A DNA stretch of 64,000 nt from Eledone cirrhosa (lineage: Eukaryota): contig OZ024744.1 in assembly GCA_964016885.1 (NCBI GenBank), forward strand, positions 111,166,001-111,230,000. The letters are read 5' to 3'. Below, piece by piece: positions 4,093 to 59,126 of the stretch (within the stretch, counting starts at the first letter, position 1; the number at the start of each line of letters is the position of its first letter). The position numbers were made by a program, and so were the translations under genes. The notes below the pieces were generated by a model. That model saw only the letters and a program-made list of their open reading frames with translations. It had not been told where the DNA came from and did not search any database.

Positions 4093-7000
4093 AGTAAAAC
4101 TACACAATCCACTATAAATTACCTTGCCCTGAACACAGTAAAACTACACAATCCACTATTACTTACCTTGCCCTGAACACAGAATAACTACACAATCCAC
4201 TATAACTTAACTGGTCCTGAACACAGTAAAACTACACAATCCACTATTATTTACCTTGCTCTGAACACAGAAATACTACACAATCCACTATAACTTACTT
4301 TGCCATGAACACAGTAAAACTACACAATCCACTATTACTTACCTTGCTCTGAACACAGAAAAACTACACAATCCACTATAACTTACTTTGCCATGAACAC
4401 AGTAAAACTACACAATCCACTATAACTTAACTGGCCCTGAACACAGTAACACTACACAATCAACTATAACTTACCTTGCTCTGAACACATTAAAACTACA
4501 CAATGCACTATAACTTACTTTGCCATGAACACAGTAAAACTACACAATCCACTATTACTTACCTTGCTCTGAACACAGTAAAACTACACAATCCACTATT
4601 ACTTACCTTGCTCTGAACACAGACAAACTACACAATCCACTATAGCTTACATTGCTCTGAACACAGTAAAACTACACAATCCACTATAGCTTACCTTGCC
4701 CTGAACACAGTAAAACTACACAATCCACTATAAATTACCTTGCTCTGAACACAGTAAAATTACACAATCCACTATAACTTACCTTGCTCTGAACACAGTA
4801 AACCTACACAATCCACTATAAATTACCTTGCCCTGAACACAGTAAAACTACACAATCCACTATAAGTTACCTTGCTCTGAACACAGTAAAACAACACAAT
4901 CCACTATAACTTAACTGGCCCTGAACACAGTAAAGCTACACAATCCACTATAACTTACCATGCCCTGAACACAGTAAAACTAAACAATCCACTATAACTT
5001 ACATTGCCCTGAACCCAGTAAAATTACACAAACCACTATAAATTACCTTGCCCGGAGCACAGTAAAACTACACAATCCACTATAGTTTACCTTGCCCTGA
5101 AAACAGCAAAACTACACAATCCACTATAAATTACCTTGCCCTGAACACAGTAAAACTACACAATCCACTATTACTTACCTTGCTCTGAACACAGTAAAAC
5201 TACACAATCCACTATTACTTACCTTGCTCTGAACACAGAAAAACTACACAATCCACTATAACTTACTTTGCCATGAACACAGTAAAACTACACAATCCAC
5301 TATTACTTACCTTGCTCTGAACACAGAAAAACTACACAATCCACTATAACTTACTTTGCCATGAACACAGTAAAACTACACAATCCACTATAACTTAACT
5401 GGCTCTGAACACAGTAACACTACACAATCAACTATAACTTACCTTGCTCTGAACACAGTAAAACTACACAATGCACTATAACTTACTTTGCCATGAACAC
5501 AGTAAAACTACACAATCCACTATAACTTACCTTGCACTGAACACAGTAAAACTACACAATCCACTATAAATTACCTTGTTCTGAACACAGTAAAACTACA
5601 CAATCCACTCTAACTTACCTTGCCCAGAACAAAGTAAAACTACGTAATCCACTATACCTTACCTTGCCCTGAACACAGTGAAACTACACAATCCACTATA
5701 ACTTACCTTGCTCTGAACACAGTAAAACTACACAATCCACTATACCTTACCTTGCCCTGAACACAGTAAAACTACATAATCCACTATAGTTTACCTTGCC
5801 CTGAACACAATAAAACTACACAATCCACTATAAATTACCTTGCTCTGAACACAATAAAACTACACAATCCACTATAACTTAACTGGCCCTGAACACAGTA
5901 AAACTACACAATCCACTATAACTTACCTTACCCTGAACACAGTAAAACTACACAATCCACTATAACAAACATTGCCCTGAACACGGTAAAACTACACAAA
6001 CCACTATAAATTACCTTGCCCTGAACACAGTAAAACTACATAATCCACTATAGTTTACCTTGCCCTGAACACAATAAAACTACACAATCCACTATAAATT
6101 ACCTTGCCCTGAACACAGTAAAACTACACAATCCACTATAACGTACCTTGCCCTGTACACAGTAAAACTACTTAATTCACTATACCTTACCTTGCCCTGA
6201 ACACAGTAAAACTACACAATCCACTATAACTTACCTTGCCCTAAACACAGTAAAACTACACAATCCTCTATAACTTACCTTGCTGTGAACACAGTAAAAC
6301 TACACAATCCACTATGCCTTACCTTGCCCTGAACACAGTAAAACTACACAATCCACTATAACTTACTTTGACATGAACACAGTAAAACTACACAATCCAC
6401 TACAACTTACCTTGCACTGAACACAGTAAAACTACACAATCCACTATAAATTACCTTCCTCTGAACACAGTAAAACTACACAATCCACTATAACTTAACT
6501 GGCCCTGAACACGGTAACACTACACAATCCACTCTAACTTACCTTGCCCAGAACAAATTATAACTACGTAATCCACTATACCTTACCTTGCCCTGAACAC
6601 AGTCAAACTACACAATCCACTATAGCTTACATTGCTCTGAACACAGTAAAACTACACAATCCACTATAGCTTACCTTGCCCTGAACACAGTAAAACTACA
6701 CAATCCACTATAAATTACCTTGCTCTGAACACAGTAAAATTACACAATCCACTATAACTTACCTTGCTCTGAACACAGTAAACCTACACAATCCACTATA
6801 AATTACCTTGCCCTGAACACAGTAAAACTACACTATCCACTATAAGTTACCTTGCTCTGAACACAGTAAAACAACACAATCCACTATAACTTAACTGGCC
6901 CTGAACACAGTAAAACTACACAATCCACTATAACTTACCATGCCCTGAACACAGTAAAACTAAACAATCCACTATAACTTACATTGCCCTGAACACAGTA

Positions 7001-51200: not shown

Positions 51201-53160
51201 TACACAATCCACTATAACTTACCTTGCCCTGAACACAGTAGAACTAGACAATCCACTATAACTCACCTTGCCCTGAACACAGTAAAACTACACAATCCAC
51301 TATAACTTACCATGCCCTGAACACAGTAAAACTACACAATCCACCATAACTTACCTTGCTCTGAACACAGTAAAACTACACAATCCACTATAACTTACCT
51401 TCCTGTGAACACAATAAAACTACACAATCCACTATAACTTACCTTGCCCAGAACACAGTAGAACTAGACAATCCACTATAACTTACCTTGCCCTGAACAC
51501 AGTAACACTAGCCAATCCACTATAATTTACCTTGCCCTGAACACAGTAAAACTACACAATCTACTATAATTTACCTTGCCCTGAATACACTTAAATTACA
51601 CAATCCACTATAACTTACCTTGCCCTGAACACATTAAAACTACACAATCCACTATAACTTACCTTGCCCTGAACACAGTAAAACTACACAATCCACCAAA
51701 ACTTACCTTGCTCTGAACAGAGTAAAACTACACAATCCACTATAACTTACCTTGCCCTGAACACAGTAAAACTACACAATCCACTATAACTTACCTTGTC
51801 CTGAACACAGTAAAACTACACAATCCACTCTAACTTACCTTGTCCTGAACACAGTAGAACTAGACAATCCACTATAACTCACCTTGCCCTGAACACAGTA
51901 AAACTACACAATCCACTATAACATACCATGCCCTGAACACAGTAAAACTACACAATCCACCAAAACTTACCTTGCTCTGAACACAGTAAACTACACAATC
52001 CACTATAACTTACCTTACCCTGAACACAGTAAAACTACACAATCCACTATAACTTACCTTCCTGTGAACAAAGTAAAACTACACAATCCACTATAACTTA
52101 CCTTCCTGTGAACACAGTAAAACTACACAATCCACTCTAACTTACCTTGTCCTGAATACACTAAAACTACACAATCCACTCTAACTTACCTTGTCCTGTA
52201 CACAGTAAAACTACACAATCCACTATAATTTACCTTGCCCTGAACACAGTAAAACTACACAATCCACTATAACTTACGTTGCCCTGAACACAGTAAAACT
52301 ACACAATCCACTATAACTTACCTTGCCCTGAACACAGTAAAACTAGACAATCCACTATAACTTACCTTGCCCTGATCACAGTAAAACTACACAATCCACT
52401 ATAACTTACCTTGCCCTGAACACAGTAAAACTACACAATCCACTATAACTTACCTTGCCCTGAACACAGTAAAACTACACAATCCACTATAACTTACCTT
52501 GCCCTGAACACAGTAAAACTAGACAATCCACTGTAACTTACCTTGCCCTGAACACAGTAAAACTACACAATCCACTATAATTTACCTTGCCCTGAACACA
52601 GTAAAACTACACAATCCACTATAACTTACCTTGCCCTGAACACAGTAAAACTACACAATCCACTATAACTTACCTTGCCCTGAACACAGTAAAACTAGAC
52701 AATCCACTATAACTTACCTTGCCCTGAACACAGTAAAACTACACAATCCACTATAACTTACCTTGCCCTGAACACAGTAAAACTAGACAATCCACTATAA
52801 CTTACCTTGCCCTGAACACAGTAAAACTACACAATCCACTATAATTTACCTTGCCCTGAACACAGTAAAACTACACAATCCACTATAACTTACCTTGCCC
52901 TGAACACAGTAAAACTACACAATCCACTATAACTTACCTTGCCCTGAACACAATAAAAATACACAATCCACTATAACTTACCTTGCCCTGAACACAGTAA
53001 AACTAGACAATCCACTATAACTTACCTTGCCCTGAACACAATAAAAATACACAATCCACTATAACTTACCTTGCCCTGAACACAGTAAAACTAGACAATC
53101 CACTATAACTTACCTTGCCCTGAACACAATAAAAATACATAATCTCCTATAACCTACCTT

Positions 53161-53642: not shown

Positions 53643-53841
53643 TAATCCACTCTAAACTAATAATGATACATTACAATAGATAGAGGCAGTGGTTGTTTTA
53701 CACAAAAATCGAGTAAACAATAAAAAAAAAAACCAATAACAATAAACAAGAATACTACAATAAAAAAATTCCCAATACGGGGACTAACCACCCAAGGGCA
53801 ATTCAGGTATCTCACGAATCATCACCACATTTATCCACCTT

Positions 53842-54693
53842 TTAGCAAATGCAGTGGGGGCAGGGCAGCACTTCTCTCCCCACACTCCTTTCCAAGTGAA
53901 ACTTGAAGAAGTTGATGAGGGATTGGCCGAAGAGAAAAGTGTCTGTCTTCAGTCCTTTCAATCCGGTCCACCATATAATCTCTTTCACAACGGCCACCAG
54001 ACAGAGGAAAATTGCCTGCTCTTCCTGGCCAAAGGAAAGCGGCGGGTCGATCTTCACTATGGACTCGGCCGATAGCCGTATTCGTTCCACACGCGACAGT
54101 AGCTGTTCGACATAACTCCACAAGTCAGTAATGCACGGACACTGGACAAGTGCGAGCAGAACGGTTTCGTCGCTCTGCGCGCATCTCGGGCAGGTCCGTC
54201 TGACAGCACTTCCGTGCCTGTAGAGTTTATCCCGAACCGGCAGTGCCCCCCGGTAGCACTGCCAAGCGAGGGATTTATGGAAGTTATCCATCGTCCCCGA
54301 CTCGAAAGTCCTCCGGAACAGACTGATCAGTTCGAGTTCGTCAAAGTCCAGGGCCTCTCCGAGTGCGACGTCACACTTGCCTACCATTGATCCCCTATAG
54401 AACTCGAGAGTGGAAGTTCCACTGACCGTATTGCCCGCTCGGTAGAGGGCAGTGGGAACCTGGCAACATTCCAGATGCCAGTCACTCAGTCTTGGTCTCT
54501 TGACACAGGACTGCAGCTCTGTCAAAGCGACGAGCTGTGGAAAGATTTCTCTCACAAACGCTGACCACACCATTTCATCGTTTAGGCAGAGTATCTGGAA
54601 AAGCCGCAGCCTCAGCGCATGTCTGCGCATCATTTGCCACAGCATGCCCAGTCCTTTGCGTAGAGGGTGTTGGCAGCAGATGGACCACCTCAC
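53842..54693 (-). pseudogene. LINE ORF2 C-terminal region (zf-RVT-like)
   Basis: 283-aa ORF with CCQHPLRKGLGM, KSLAWQCYRGALPVRDKL and CPRCAQSDETVLLALVQC (CX2C...C, expected His replaced). Typical of the Tx1/L1 ORF2 tail. Confidence 0.85.
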
Positions 54694-54713
54694 CCTCGTA
54701 GGTGTTTTGTTTA

Positions 54714-55186
54714 TCTAATCTAATCTAATCTGGCCGAGTTTACACTCGCAAATAAGAAGAACCAGGGCCGCTCCTAGGAGCATTGGATTTGGTGTACTTC
54801 ATATTTGTTTCGGTTGCTGAATACAATCAGGGGCCGCTACTTCTCCTGAAGATCAATAGTTCTCTTCTAACTCGAGCGGGAGCGCCTTTCCATTGTCAAT
54901 TTTCATTGATCATCTACAAAGCTACATTGTTCTCAGAACCACTACACCAGTCTTTCTATGCGTGCAGCTGGACCTATCGATTTTTTTTTTTAGATGGCTG
55001 TTGACTCTTATCAGTTCTTCCGCCTTTTGTCAGGTTTTATTTTTTGTTCTGCAGGGTGTCCAAAATCACCCTCCTCACCAAGTAAACTTGGTGAGGTTGC
55101 CAGTTTAGTCGCTGACGACCCGACCATGCGACAGGTTGTACTGGATTACATGCTACCAGTAACACTCAAGAGTGACCTGACATGGT
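54714..55186 (-). mobile_element. ~470-bp non-autonomous retroposon nested in the LINE
   Basis: Flanked by direct repeat GTTTTGTTTA (54704-54713 and 55185-55194). On the minus strand it ends in a CGAGT-GTAA-ACTCG hairpin, GCC and AGATTAGATTAGATTAGAT. LINE coding similarity stops and resumes at these boundaries. Confidence 0.8.
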
Positions 55187-55187
55187 T
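55100..55187 (-). ncRNA. Candidate HDV-like self-cleaving ribozyme, possibly degenerate
   Basis: Minus strand: P1 ACCATG/CATGGT(C), P2 CCAGT/ACTGG, P1.1 CC/GG, P4 TCG-TCAG-CGA and J4/2 CTAA, all in HDV order. P3 pairing is imperfect and G1 reads A. Confidence 0.6.
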
Positions 55188-56530
55188 TTGTTTAACTCCT
55201 GTCAATCTTTCATATTCCTCCCAAAGAATGCCGACCACCTCGATTTCCGATGTGTTCGACACCATCACGGTGATGTCCGCATAAGCCGACACAGCCTTTC
55301 CGCCTCCCGTTTCGAGCGGAATGCCCTGCAACAGCTCCAGCTTCCGCAGTAATGGCTCAAGAGTCAGCGAAGTGGTTAAGTAAGGCCTCACACATCTCTC
55401 TGGAATCGTTCAGCTCGCATTCGTCTTGGTCCGCCAAAGACCGTGCTTTGTTACCACGTTGCGTCTCTGCCACGCGAGCCCATCGAACAGCTTTGGTTCC
55501 CTCGTTTCTCAGCGCACGCGCTTTAGCTCTAACAATGCAACCTTCGTGTTTCACATTAAAGAAATGATGTAATGCCATTCTCGCGGCTAGCACGTCAGTT
55601 GCAATGCCACTACAAGTAGCCTCGTCTAACTTAGCTACCAGCTCCCCCTCCTTTCCATTCTTCTCTAACGCTACTTCTTTGCTAAACCCTATCGATATTA
55701 CTGTAATCCCTCTTTTGAGACTCGACCACCACCACCACCTGTTGTTGACGACTCACCTCCCTGTCAACTTTTGCTTAACTAAATTGGTGACCCGGTCGCT
55801 GTAAACCTTACGTGCAGGAAACAACATGTTCAGCTTCCACTAACTAGGTCCTAACGTACATGTCTTATCTAGGCCGACCATACAGATCACAAACTCGTGA
55901 TCTGAATAGGCGACCGTTTTAAATTGTGGATAGCCTACAATATTTCAATCTATTTTCCTAATGAGAATCTTGTCTATATACGACCTAGATGACCCTATGT
56001 GGTTGGTCCACATCTACACTGGCGCATTAGGGAAATCTGGTCGGTACCTGTCAGACAGTTGGAACTGGCTTATCAGATACTTGAGGCATTTACACCGCCG
56101 TTCCAGTCCCCTGCTAACAATAAAGGGTGAGACGTACCCAGAAAGGCTTCCAGGCATCTAAGAGGTCCAGTTGTCCGGCACGGAATGGAGCGTAGACAGC
56201 CACCAGTCTAAAGGCACCACCTTCGCTATTACTCACGTTCAGGATCACCAACTTACCGTCCGGGTCCCGGAATATCGACCTTACCTCGAAATCCAGACCT
56301 TTCCTAAACAGCACTGTCACCCCACCTCCCATTCCCGGTCGGCTAACAGATGCGAAGATCTGATAGTCGCCAAAAATGTGGGCTAGTGCGCGCGTGTCAG
56401 AAATCCTGGTCTCGCTGACGGTAATTACATCTATTTCTAGAGACCTGAGGTCGTTCAGCAGTTGACCCTGCTTCCAGGGCGACCCCAGACCACGAACATT
56501 TTAAACATCCTACACTTTATATGGCTATGT
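55187..56530 (-). pseudogene. LINE ORF2 APE endonuclease and partial reverse transcriptase, frameshifted
   Basis: Translated by eye: NVRGLGSPWKQGQLLNDLRSLEIDVITVSETRI (about 56400-56500), GGGVTVLF..RLVAVYAP, YSDHEFV (about 55890-55910), WKLN, then LTLEPLLRKL..SAYADITV. Multiple stops and frameshifts. Confidence 0.88.
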
Positions 56531-56557
56531 TGACAGGCTAAAAGAGAGAGGAAAGGT

Positions 56558-57570
56558 TTACTTACCTCCCTGGGGCTTATGGAGGACAGGTGGTTCGACC
56601 TCCATATTTTGAGTTTTTATTTTTTTTAAACCCTTAAGCAATCTGCTTGTTGCTTGTATATTCGGGATTCCCACGACACGAGGAAAGCTCTCCCTAATCG
56701 CTGTGTATGTGTTGAGCGACATTCGTATTAGAAACAAATCTTCTGGCACGCGATTTCTTGTCTTCATACTATGAAGGCCATCATTTACTCGTTGAGCCTT
56801 CTTCCAAGCACGAAGTTTTGTGTGCTTTGTTTTTGTTGTGGTTTGATTGTGGTGATGATAGTGGTGATGATGGTGTTGTTGGTGTTGTTTTGGGTGTGTT
56901 TTGTGGGTGTGGTGTCTGCGATTTCATTTGTTTGTGTGTTCTTTTGTTTTTGTTTTTGTTATGGTTGTTTGCGTTTGTAGGGATTGGGGTGTTGGTGGTG
57001 GTTGGTGTGGAAGTGAATTTGTTGTGTGGTGCCAGCATTTTCTGTAATGGGTGTTTTTGTGATGTGTGGACCTTTTTTTCTTTTGTTTTTTTTATTTAGG
57101 TTTTGCCTCGTCTTCGCTACTGAAAGACGATGTTGTGTGTGGGGGGGGGGTGTTTGTTAGTGTGTGTATTTTGAGTGGGAAGACAAATGGGAGAGTTCTC
57201 CTTGTTTTCCCCTGAGTGATCAAAATTGGTGCTGACATTTTCGCTGGTGCTTCCTGTGCTAGTGTCGGTGGTGGTCCCTTGCATTTTTGAGCTGAGGGCA
57301 GAAGGCTCGCAAGTGAGTTGTTTCTCCGCAGACGAAACAGTGCAGCCTTTTGCCCTCGGTCATTACTTGCAGAGCCATCCCGTTTAGGAGATGGATGTGG
57401 TCCGAGATTTTTCTCAGGTCCTCAAGCCTGATCTGGGGAAGAATAACCAGGTCAACCCCCGACCAGTCCTTCCTGGCAGTTCTGGTTGCTTCGATCGGGA
57501 CAGCATCTGTCCCCTCCACAATCATGAATCCCAGGAACCACCACATATCTAGTCCTGGGGTGTCCAGCAA
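56558..57570 (-). pseudogene. LINE ORF1 remnant with zinc knuckle and low-complexity linker
   Basis: CFVCGETTHLRAFC (CX2CX4HX4C) in ORF 57259-57570, followed by a T/P/N/K-rich stretch, directly upstream of the APE domain. Confidence 0.75.
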
Positions 57571-58845
57571 GGAGGCCTACTCGGGTCGCTCCTCTTTGCG
57601 CTGTCAGTGGACGGCTTGATCCGATTGGTCTGGTCGCCCCACAACGTTTCGTACCTGGACGACTCGACACTGGCTCGCTTGGCTGAGGCGATAGTTGAGG
57701 ACCTCCGGCAAATCATCATAGCTCTAAAGCTCCTTGGACTTGAGATCATCCCATCCAAATCTGAGGTGACAAACGAGCTACGGAGAGAGCAAATTCCATG
57801 AAGCCGTACTCAGCATCTGTCCCGTCCTGTCCGGAGCTCGGCTTACGCCAAAAGACGCCACCTGCATTCTCGACTCTCCGATTCTCTCGAAAGCCATAAG
57901 AGACTGCCTGGAGACCAAGCATTAAAGCTTGTACCGAACAGCAGAGAAGCTGCGTCTCCTTGATGCTCCTCCGGCGCTCTTCCTCTTGAGGAACTGCTTC
58001 ACCCTCCCCAAATTTCTGTTCACGCTACGTGGTGTCACCCCCACGCAAGTCTTCTCAGGGAACTCGACGTCACCATCCAATGCTGTGCAGAATTCATCTT
58101 CAATGTCAGTTTCGACAGCGCCGGCTGGCAACAGGTGAATCTCCCAGTGAAGTTCCGTGACCTCAGCCTCCAATCTGCTTCAGATCTAACTCTACTGGCC
58201 TACCTTTCCTCTATCTCCTTCAGTCATGCGCTCCCACTGTCTTGCCGCCAGAGGGCAGGCTGGTTCCCCCGACATGCCGCTCTCAACGACATATTGAGAA
58301 GGAGCCTGAGCGCAGCTGGCTTCCCATCACAACTGGAGCCAGTAGGTTTAGACTGCGGGGATGGAAAGTGCCCCGATGGAATTATCCCCTTCCCATTCGA
58401 AGGAGGTAGATCCCTAGGATGTCACATGTTGGTACGTGTTCTCCGAGTCAACTTCGTAACTTCGGCCACAAACCCCGGTACCGCGGCCCACTTTGCGGTG
58501 GAAAGGTAGACAAACAAATACTGAGGATTGTCCAGCCACTTACTCTTCGCACCGGTTACCGTCGAGACCTCAGGCGTACTTTGGACCCCGTACTGCCGAG
58601 CTCCTCAGCAAGACCGGAACGTCGGCGGCCCGTCTGAGGAAGGAGCTTCGTGAGGTGGGGTGGCTGTTGTAGCGGGTCTCGCTGGCCATTGTCCAGGGAA
58701 ATGCTTTTGCAGAGCGCAACCACAACACCGCCACGCCCTAGACCTAGAATCTATCACCTCCCCATTCCCCATCCCATTCTTCTGTAACCCTAGAGCCCTT
58801 GCCTTTTCCCCCCTTTTCCGTTATTTTACACACACAAAATAAACT
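57558..58845 (+). mobile_element. 5'-truncated, internally deleted CRE-like non-LTR retrotransposon (RT + restriction-like endonuclease)
   Basis: GVQQGGLLGSLLFALSV..NVSYLDD..LGLEIIPSKSE (RT), LFLLRNCFTLPK, RHAALNDILRRSL..EPVGL..DGKCPDG (RLE PD motif) and LAIVQGNAF near the end. AATAAA at 58838. The clade call rests on remembered motif patterns. Confidence 0.8.
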
Positions 58846-58982: not shown

Positions 58983-59126
58983 TCGGCGGGATTTGAACAA
59001 AATAATTGTTTCTACTTTTGGCACAAGGCCAGCAATTACCCAGTACATAAAATACCAGTAATGTACTGGGTGTTTGCTGGCCTTGTGCTAAAAGTAGAAA
59101 CAATTATTTTGTTCAAATCCCGCCGA
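58983..59126. repeat. 66-bp-arm inverted repeat built from SINE pieces
   Basis: 58983-59048 is the near-perfect reverse complement of 59061-59126, with a 12-nt spacer. Confidence 0.9.

What the first reader, a model, noticed from the sequence alone, without database searches (positions are those of the whole stretch)
54704..55194. Ribozyme-headed non-coding retroposon (SIDE-like) nested inside the Tx1 LINE
Seen: a ~470-bp insert bounded by a 10-bp direct repeat, with no recognisable coding motif and no tRNA head. Its 5' end (minus strand) is ACCATG-[J1/2 with CACTC-TT-GAGTG hairpin]-CCAGT-ACAACCTGTCG-CATGGTC-GG-G-TCG-TCAG-CGA-CTAA-ACTGG. That gives P1, P2, P1.1, P4 and a C-U-A-A J4/2 (putative catalytic C at 55108) in HDV nested-pseudoknot order, and P1 starts right at the insertion boundary. 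Established: HDV-like ribozymes process the 5' ends of R2 and RTE retrotransposons, and R2-derived short internally deleted elements keep only the ribozyme and 3' UTR. Inference: this is a Pol III-independent, self-cleaving non-autonomous family, possibly undescribed in this lineage. Caveat: P3 is mismatched and G1 is absent in this copy.
Basis: partly seen in the sequence, partly recalled or inferred. Interest (0 to 1): 0.78.

Follow-up and report, generated by a model that had tools for sequence, protein, structure and literature searches.

The report
Virus-like nuclease roadblock heads a retroposon
This jumping-gene copy does not begin with the proposed self-cutting ribozyme but with a sequence that matches the exonuclease-blocking RNA knot of Zika-type viruses, which likely lets the cell's own RNA-degrading enzyme trim the element's start, a device that the papers searched describe only in viruses.

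Summary
The insert is real: a 470-nt non-coding retroposon (55183-54714, minus strand) with a 10-bp target duplication, a (GATTA)n tail and hundreds of relatives. Instead, bases 1-59 carry the anatomy of a flavivirus class-1a exoribonuclease-resistant RNA (xrRNA): three-way junction, G3-C46, the U-A-U triple bases, junction C22 and a 4-bp loop pseudoknot. Across 27 homologues 95% of cells pair and 11 of 20 pairs change on both sides; the pseudoknot covaries (0 of 20,000 permutations). The same ~190-nt head starts at least three other short families and autonomous single-ORF RTE-type LINEs here and in metagenome records; 11,923 heads match in this genome. Element 5' ends sit where Xrn1 is reported to stop. 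Likely mechanism: host 5'-3' exonucleases trim read-through RNA to the fold, doing the job that ribozymes do in R2/RTE. Resistance is untested, this copy has C22U, and the LINE that reads the tail was not found.

The parts
54714..55183 (-). Non-autonomous retroposon copy (called family A here), 470 nt
   Evidence: 39 other full-length matches at 82-92% among 40 scored of 5,776 candidates; ends defined by column counts
55185..55194 (.). Target-site duplication, 5' copy (10 bp); one extra base at 55184
   Evidence: sequence
54704..54713 (.). Target-site duplication, 3' copy
   Evidence: sequence
55125..55183 (-). Class-1a xrRNA-like fold, element positions 1-59 (position p = 55184 - p): G3-C46 (PK1), U4/A24/U44 triple bases, P1 5-9/48-52, P2 10-13/18-21, junction base 22, P3 23-28/40-45, PK2 32-35/56-59 after a 3-nt linker
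   Evidence: only hit of a structure descriptor in both strands of the 64-kb window, 10 of 60,000 shuffles; covariation; Rfam Flavivirus_SLIV 21.6-25.2 bits, below its cut-off of 54.5
55162..55162 (-). Junction base 22: U in this copy, C in 18 of 22 family copies and in flavivirus class 1a; predicted to weaken or abolish resistance of this copy
   Evidence: role of the junction C from PMC8374639 and PMC8571300; the C-to-U change itself is not tested in the passages read
55099..55124 (-).
   Evidence: helix lists and folds; register not unique
54993..55098 (-). Rest of the ~190-nt head: further hairpins (CACCAAG/CTTGGTG stem kept while its loop varies); the whole head is the 5' UTR of autonomous RTE-type LINEs and is shared with short families B, C, D
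54731..54981 (-). Body shared with a tRNA-CORE SINE; ends in a small stem-loop (54748-54735)
   Evidence: 11 of the 30 loci from a 3'-end search carry a tRNA-CORE head instead; 8 of 27 in a tail-pattern sample
54714..54730 (-). (GATTA)n tail; partner LINE not found
   Evidence: 848 tail matches with up to 2 mismatches, 0 in the reversed control; none of 27 sampled places is a LINE 3' end
53822..54703 (-). Host L1/Tx1-type LINE, 3' part of ORF2 (zf-RVT)
55195..57600 (-). Host L1/Tx1-type LINE, 5' part (zinc knuckle, endonuclease, remnant of RT), broken and internally deleted

Best explanation
The insert is a non-autonomous retroposon whose head is the 5' UTR of an RTE-type LINE and begins with a class-1a xrRNA-like double pseudoknot, which likely halts host 5'-3' exonucleases so that read-through transcripts would be trimmed to a defined, protected 5' end without a promoter or ribozyme. 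Shown: multi-copy element with target duplication; head shared with autonomous EN+RT LINEs; covarying three-way junction and loop pseudoknot; 5' ends of four short families, of the LINE and of an unrelated repeat in other records falling within about 2 nt of the fold's first base. From established knowledge: class-1a folds of this anatomy stop Xrn1 two positions upstream of PK1 (PMC13161572) or 5-6 nt before P1 (PMC5760640). Inferred: a copy lying in a host transcript (intron, 3' read-through) is released when Xrn1/Xrn2 degrades the decapped or cleaved upstream RNA and stalls at the ring; a LINE protein that recognises the 3' stem-loop and (GATTA)n tail, shared with a tRNA-CORE SINE, reverse-transcribes it; the family arose by template switching between the RTE head and that SINE's body. 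This window copy has lost the junction C and is likely a weakened relic.
For: Structure descriptor finds 3 of 3 flavivirus 3'-UTR controls, one site in the window, 10 of 60,000 shuffles. 27-sequence alignment: 95.0% of 537 cells paired, 11 of 20 pairs with two-sided change, 0 of 500 shuffles, slid controls 29-46%; RNAalifold predicts P1-P3 unprompted. PK2, which was not part of the search pattern: 65 Watson-Crick pairs over 20 sequences against 40.5 +/- 4.0 when loops and partners are permuted, 0 of 20,000, peaking at a 3-nt linker as in the viral controls. Full structure in 24 of 30 own-genome pattern hits, 42 of 121 metagenome hits, 3 of 8 viral hits, 1 of 82 prokaryote hits. 11,923 pattern matches here, 0 reversed. 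Head directly upstream of an RTE-type ORF in 9 of 30 loci, 7 of them starting at positions 1-5 (RVT_1 E 1e-34), and in metagenome loci L298 and L234. In a sample chosen by the tail alone, 7 of 12 copies that reach the head start at positions 1-4. A different repeat in metagenome records (58 copies) starts at G3. Another RTE-type family of this genome has a twister-like motif at the same place (L380, E 6e-4, below cut-off), and an Ingi-like LINE an HDV-like fold, so this slot is a 5'-end-processing slot.
Against: No resistance assay and no RNA 5'-end data. Two junction pairs are U-A (9-48, 23-45) whereas mosquito-borne flavivirus junctions are reported as all C-G, and a designed xrRNA with the expected fold but weak PK2 was degraded (PMC13161572). 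Rfam scores are below cut-off (though a true viral xrRNA, L227, scores only 29.7 and L229 has no xrRNA hit). Without pseudoknot energies, the junction is the best fold of the first 64 nt in 5 of 7 copies, but longer RNAs prefer rival pairings by 0-8 kcal/mol and P1 probability is near 0 at 130 nt in all 7. PK2 reaches 4 bp in only 12-13 of 20 homologues. Rows of the alignment were picked for intact P3 after a pattern that fixes P1 and the base of P3, so those pairs are selected; relatedness inflates the shuffle controls. A fixed 5' end is equally expected from an internal promoter. 3 of 12 sampled copies start at 73-75 instead. Clade RTE is by ORF layout and motif likeness, not by a tree.
Confidence: 0.6

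Rival explanations
1. The fold is a working xrRNA but only stabilises the RNA: the head is also an internal Pol II promoter that starts at position 1, and the ring protects the transcript after decapping.
For: Fixed 5' ends fit either origin; LINE-derived heads of mollusc LP-SINEs were proposed as promoters (PMC4758252); the autonomous LINE must be translated, which a cap would ease.
Against: The 5' boundary tracks the fold to within 2 nt in families whose flanking and downstream sequences differ, and 12 of 27 copies with a candidate duplication show 1-8 extra bases between it and position 1 (some of these short duplications may be chance), which suits a read-through origin; no promoter test was possible.
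Confidence: 0.22
2. The fold is a vestige or serves another role (protein binding, cap-independent translation, second-strand priming) and no longer blocks exonucleases.
For: U-A junction pairs, 4-bp PK2, strong rival pairings in longer RNAs; the same RTE ORF also occurs with a wholly different 5' UTR (L356, L358, L376, L377, L382).
Against: G3, U4, A24, U44, C46 are invariant in 27 of 27 aligned sequences while stems and PK2 covary, which is the pattern of a maintained ring; the youngest family (96-100% identical copies) keeps every element.
Confidence: 0.12
3. The head is a self-cleaving ribozyme (HDV-like as proposed, or an unknown class) that cuts at or near the 5' end.
For: The slot is filled by ribozymes in other LINEs; C76-U-A-A is invariant in 30 of 30 family copies; two of eight head copies give an HDV-order fold using C76 at scores reached by 4 and 6 of 150 shuffles.
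Confidence: 0.05

Closest known systems
Subclass 1a xrRNAs of mosquito-borne flaviviruses (ZIKV xrRNA1, MVE xrRNA2; Rfam RF01415, RF03547)
   Same: Three-way junction P1-P3, PK1 G-C, U-A-U triple bases, single C between P2 and P3, PK2 of 3-6 bp after a 3-nt linker, following hairpin; the same short invariant letters as the viral controls L227, L229, L230.
   Different: Sits at the 5' end of chromosomal retroelements, not in a viral 3' UTR; U-A at two junction pairs; no dumbbell or CRE element follows (no such Rfam hit on heads); resistance untested.
R2 SIDEs and R2/R1 hybrid SIDEs (PMC3414825, abstract read)
   Same: Non-coding element made of a 5'-end-processing module of one LINE and a 3' end read by another LINE; depends on host co-transcription.
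   Different: Module is xrRNA-like, not an HDV ribozyme; not site-specific; 3' part is shared with a tRNA-CORE SINE.
Bipartite non-autonomous RTE/Ingi/Vingi elements (Bov-A, RIME, NARTc; PMC5786205)
   Same: Keeps the extreme 5' end of an autonomous LINE; module exchange with SINEs.
   Different: 3' end is not that of the head-bearing LINE found here (whose ORF is followed by a short CTGAGT-type repeat); 5' module is not a ribozyme.
Mollusc LP-SINEs (PMC4758252)
   Same: LINE-derived head replacing a tRNA head on a shared body; a GTCG..CGACTAA hairpin motif occurs in both (by eye).
   Different: The scallop LP head read in the supplement shows no three-way junction by eye; homology was not tested.
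Twister-headed Perere-3 retrotransposons (PMC8501958, abstract read)
   Same: Structured RNA module fixing the 5' end of a non-site-specific LINE.
   Different: Catalytic cleavage there; a predicted mechanical roadblock here.

Membership tests
HDV-like ribozyme | P1 of 6-7 bp opening with G1 at the cleavage site | tested here: not met
HDV-like ribozyme | P2 closed by the strand after the catalytic C | tested here: not met
   whole in 6 of 22 family copies; 5' strand pairs locally as xrRNA P3. The short families B-D do keep ACTGG
HDV-like ribozyme | 3-bp P3, L3 with C, P1.1 | tested here: not met
   descriptor best score 30, reached by 28 of 150 shuffles; control 51, 0 of 150
HDV-like ribozyme | Self-cleavage | not testable with these tools
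   needs an assay
Subclass 1a xrRNA | Three-way junction P1, P2, P3 | tested here: met
   (whole in 17, 19, 19 of 22)
Subclass 1a xrRNA | PK1: 5' G paired with the C after P3 | tested here: met
   G3 and C46 in 27 of 27 (fixed by the search pattern) and 21 of 22 family copies; invariance is consistent, not covariation
Subclass 1a xrRNA | U-A-U base triple | tested here: met
   U4, A24, U44 present in 22, 21, 21 of 22 copies; bases present, triple itself inferred
Subclass 1a xrRNA | Single C between P2 and P3 | tested here: met
   C in 18 of 22 family copies; U in this window copy
Subclass 1a xrRNA | PK2 of 2-8 bp between L3 and the strand after P1 | tested here: met
   4 bp here; all 4 pairs change on both sides across homologues; 0 of 20,000 permutations
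Subclass 1a xrRNA | All-C-G pairs at the junction (mosquito-borne flaviviruses, PMC13161572) | tested here: not met
   U9-A48 and U23-A45; C9-G48 occurs in 7 of 27 homologues
Subclass 1a xrRNA | Rfam gathering score | tested here: not met
   21.6-25.2 bits against 54.5; 2 of 3 viral controls also miss it
Subclass 1a xrRNA | Xrn1 halts about 2 nt upstream of PK1 | not testable with these tools
   element ends coincide with the predicted stop but halting needs an assay
SIDE / bipartite non-autonomous LINE | 5' end of an autonomous LINE | tested here: met
   head 85% identical to the 5' UTR of LINE copies L363, L373-L375, L378, L383
SIDE / bipartite non-autonomous LINE | 3' end of the same LINE | tested here: not met
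   no match of the body or tail in L389, L390 or five other LINE loci; tail shared with a tRNA-CORE SINE
SIDE / bipartite non-autonomous LINE | Non-coding, multi-copy, target duplication, short tandem tail | tested here: met
RTE clade (for the partner LINE) | Single ORF with AP endonuclease and RT, no RNase H, short repeat tail | tested here: met
   BovB-type 5' UTR motif of PMC5786205 supplement seen in L234 and L298 by eye
RTE clade (for the partner LINE) | Placement in an RT phylogeny | not tested
   no named reference proteins were on hand; the atlas search names no clade

The most novel reading that the evidence does not exclude
A branch of animal RTE retrotransposons and their short parasites use a flavivirus-type xrRNA, shared with RNA viruses by descent or exchange, as a third way to make a 5' end (neither promoter nor ribozyme): the host's own Xrn1/Xrn2 carves unit-length element RNA out of read-through transcripts. 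These would be the first working xrRNAs of animal chromosomes, in more than ten thousand copies in this genome, each able to leave a stable decay intermediate of the host transcript it sits in.
Probability: 0.5. Interest if true: 0.94.

Novelty: new variant of a known kind. Interest (0 to 1): 0.86.

Why it matters
A 2021 review by the xrRNA structural group states that xrRNAs had been characterised only in viruses and names their discovery in eukaryotic genomes as an open question (PMC8374639); four library searches found no later report in retroelements. The finding gives a directly testable candidate family with natural compensatory variants, a new answer to how promoter-less LINEs and SINE-like elements obtain a precise 5' end, a possible evolutionary link between flavivirus 3' UTRs and horizontally mobile RTE elements, and thousands of potential decay roadblocks inside host transcripts. 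One gel with Xrn1 decides the core claim.

Tried and rejected
Hatchet and twister-sister likeness noticed from memory: no Rfam support, dropped once the xrRNA register explained the same bases. Ingi-like LINE as parent: no similarity to head or tail. Pfam endonuclease search of the genome gave CR1-, I- and Ingi-like loci without the head as 5' UTR. LP-SINE/Nin motif search gave 10 copies of an unrelated old SINE. Partner LINE for the (GATTA)n tail: not found. Sequencing runs: no RNA holder listed; contigs of runs X1 and X2 (one sample, RNA status guessed) cover only the head region at mostly under 90% identity and cannot show starts or expression. Earlier findings of the scan: nothing. Solved-structure search: no hit. 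The bacterial promoter scan is irrelevant. Errors found and handled: row L240 was mis-parsed in the pseudoknot permutation and the test was redone; row L367 was taken from the wrong place and is unrelated sequence, so that alignment is used only qualitatively. Ruminski et al. 2011 was not held; what is said of it comes from PMC5786205. One supplementary file of PMC4758252 could not be searched; Repbase and Dfam could not be searched, so the families themselves may already be catalogued without the structure.

Full report
1. The observation. The insert runs from 55183 to 54714 on the minus strand, between two copies of a 10-bp repeat (54704-54713, 55185-55194) with one extra base at 55184, and ends in (GATTA)n. 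It has no ORF of 100 aa. The host is a broken L1/Tx1-type LINE that lacks about 330 nt at this site relative to a related copy. The genome is a 3.0-Gb animal assembly; that its SINEs look octopus-like is my recollection, not a test. A DNA search gave 5,776 candidates; the 40 scored were the copy itself and 39 full-length relatives at 82-92%. A 26-base tail pattern matches 848 times against 0 reversed.

2. The HDV model fails. In 22 gap-free head copies P1 is whole in 2 and P2 in 6. An HDV descriptor scores a clean Ingi 5' fold from the same genome at 51 (0 of 150 shuffles) but the window copy at 30 (28 of 150); of seven other head copies three give nothing, two score like shuffles, and two reach 32 and 34 (6 and 4 of 150) only by pairing with their flank. 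Target DNA can contribute to a ribozyme stem (Perere-3, abstract of PMC8501958), but here it does not do so across copies.

3. The element is a chimera. Its first ~190 nt also head three other short families (B, C, D), and its last ~290 nt are shared with a tRNA-CORE SINE. In 30 loci chosen by the tail alone (27 distinct places) 8 are that SINE, 7 are cut within the shared body or linker, and 12 reach the head, of which 7 start at positions 1-4, one at 40, three at 73-75 and one at 185.

4. What the head is. The only recurring Rfam hit on heads was Flavivirus_SLIV at 21.6-25.2 bits, below its cut-off (E 0.063 on 136 nt). Read in that register, positions 1-59 hold each feature that PMC8374639 (parts 1-3 of 5 read) and PMC8571300 (passages) give for subclass 1a xrRNAs: three-way junction, G3-C46, U4/A24/U44, a single C22, and a pseudoknot between L3 and the strand after P1. 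A descriptor built on those features finds 3 of 3 flavivirus 3'-UTR controls, one site in both strands of the window (with U allowed at 22), apart from heads only 7 AT-repeat hits in 1.5 Mb of fetched DNA, and 10 of 60,000 shuffles of a head; it was written after I had seen the head. The parts that the pattern does not fix (P2, upper P3, PK2) complete the fold in 24 of 30, 3 of 8, 42 of 121 and 1 of 82 of these loci; the three viral ones carry flavivirus DB and CRE elements.

5. Covariation. On 27 sequences (12 from this genome, 15 from metagenome records, picked for an intact P3 and distinct sequence; one, L243, is probably an RNA virus; the identity of most other metagenome rows as retroelements is not individually shown) 95.0% of 537 cells pair, 11 of 20 pairs change on both sides, no shuffle of 500 reaches this, and slid structures pair at 29-46%. 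RNAalifold predicts P1-P3 on its own. PK2 is the independent test: 65 pairs in 20 sequences at a 3-nt linker against 40.5 +/- 4.0 permuted (0 of 20,000), with 4 or more pairs in 10 of 20 at that linker and 12-13 of 20 with a linker range. Three older heads in this genome show the U9-A48 to C9-G48 change.

6. The autonomous partner of the head. Metagenome loci L298 and L234 carry the whole head followed by an AP-endonuclease ORF. With L298 as query, 9 of 30 fetched loci of this genome have the head directly before the ORF, 7 of them starting at positions 1-5; two read in full hold a single EN+RT frame with one stop near its start (RVT_1 E 1e-34 and 6e-32) ending in a short repeat. This layout is RTE-like; no tree was made. 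The same ORF also occurs under an unrelated 5' UTR. Another RTE-type locus begins with a twister-like motif. The body and tail of our element match none of seven LINE loci read in full, so its mobiliser is unknown.

7. Mechanism. Xrn1 is reported to stop two positions upstream of PK1 (PMC13161572, one section read) or 5-6 nt before P1 (PMC5760640, passages), that is at position 1 or at -1 to 0 here. Family A has T at position 2 in 18 of 18 and A at position 1 in 13 of 18 copies, and little conservation before; an unrelated 58-copy repeat in metagenome records begins at G3. I infer that read-through RNA is trimmed to the ring, giving what ribozyme cleavage gives R2 and Perere-3: a defined, nuclease-proof 5' end with no promoter. 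A promoter with a merely stabilising fold cannot be excluded. Against function: U-A junction pairs, a 4-bp PK2, rival pairings favoured by 0-8 kcal/mol in longer RNAs when pseudoknots are not scored, and the precedent of a designed xrRNA that folded but was degraded. This copy has C22U.

8. Comparison and novelty. Architecture: like R2/R1 hybrid SIDEs (abstract), bipartite RTE/Ingi/Vingi elements (PMC5786205, part 1 of 5, passages and supplement search) and LP-SINEs (PMC4758252, one section, passages and two supplement parts). The 5' module is new for such elements as far as searched: 'xrRNA + retrotransposon' gave 23 papers (21 listed; by title mostly genome editing; in PMC12222951 the word stands only in a reference), 'exoribonuclease-resistant + transposable element' 0, 'xrRNA + eukaryotic genome' since 2021 13 (12 listed; the review and RNAhub passages read), 'Xrn1-resistant + non-LTR' 1, seen as a listing only. 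Subscription journals, Repbase and Dfam were not searched. Verdict: a real element, a wrong ribozyme call, and a better finding underneath: the fold is very likely class-1a xrRNA-like (about 0.9), likely resistant in intact copies (about 0.7), and likely defines the 5' end (about 0.6). Whether it came from a virus or went to one is open.

Noticed in passing
L153 (G000:C1, minus strand, near locus position 6,800-6,900): An Ingi-like LINE (endonuclease, RT, RNase H-like end, (AAC)n tail in its relatives) begins with a clean HDV-like fold with a 12-bp P2; descriptor score 51, 0 of 150 shuffles; Rfam missed it.
   Followed up: partly
L380:1268-1319; L384:1232-1301: Other RTE-type loci of this genome start with a twister-P1-like motif (E 6e-4, below cut-off) and a weak HDV-like match (E 0.23, not above shuffles).
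   Followed up: partly
L356, L358, L376, L377, L382 versus L363, L373-L375: One RTE-type ORF occurs under two unrelated 5' UTRs, i.e. a head swap.
   Followed up: no
L225; L243, L306, L226: Class-1a-like folds in contigs that look like non-flavivirus RNA viruses: just after a capsid-like ORF (L225), and two in tandem between two ORFs (L243).
   Followed up: partly
L232-L352 (58 copies from two record series): A ~270-nt repeat ending in (AAC)n that starts exactly at an xrRNA-like fold with a branched P2 and a 5-bp PK2.
   Followed up: partly
L397, L403, L416: Three of 12 tail-sampled copies start at positions 73-75, just before the invariant CTAAA; unexplained (second block, RT stall or chance).
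   Followed up: no
L121-L150: Family D is young (96-100% identical heads), about 610 nt, often in head-to-tail arrays within (ATGT)n, and makes up most of the listed pattern matches.
   Followed up: partly
L184-L193: An old SINE with the GTCG..CGACTAA hairpin motif also seen in mollusc LP-SINE heads and, with another loop, in this head.
   Followed up: partly
L048; L393: Fold-back copies in which a head or tail is joined to its own reverse complement.
   Followed up: no
L259, L267, L268, L277: A head variant with weak PK2 repeated in AT-rich contigs beside ORFs without Pfam hits.
   Followed up: no
window 58997-59112: Long inverted repeat made of SINE 3' pieces; gives spurious microRNA hits in Rfam.
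   Followed up: no
window ~52000-53160: Tandem array of a ~43-bp unit.
   Followed up: no
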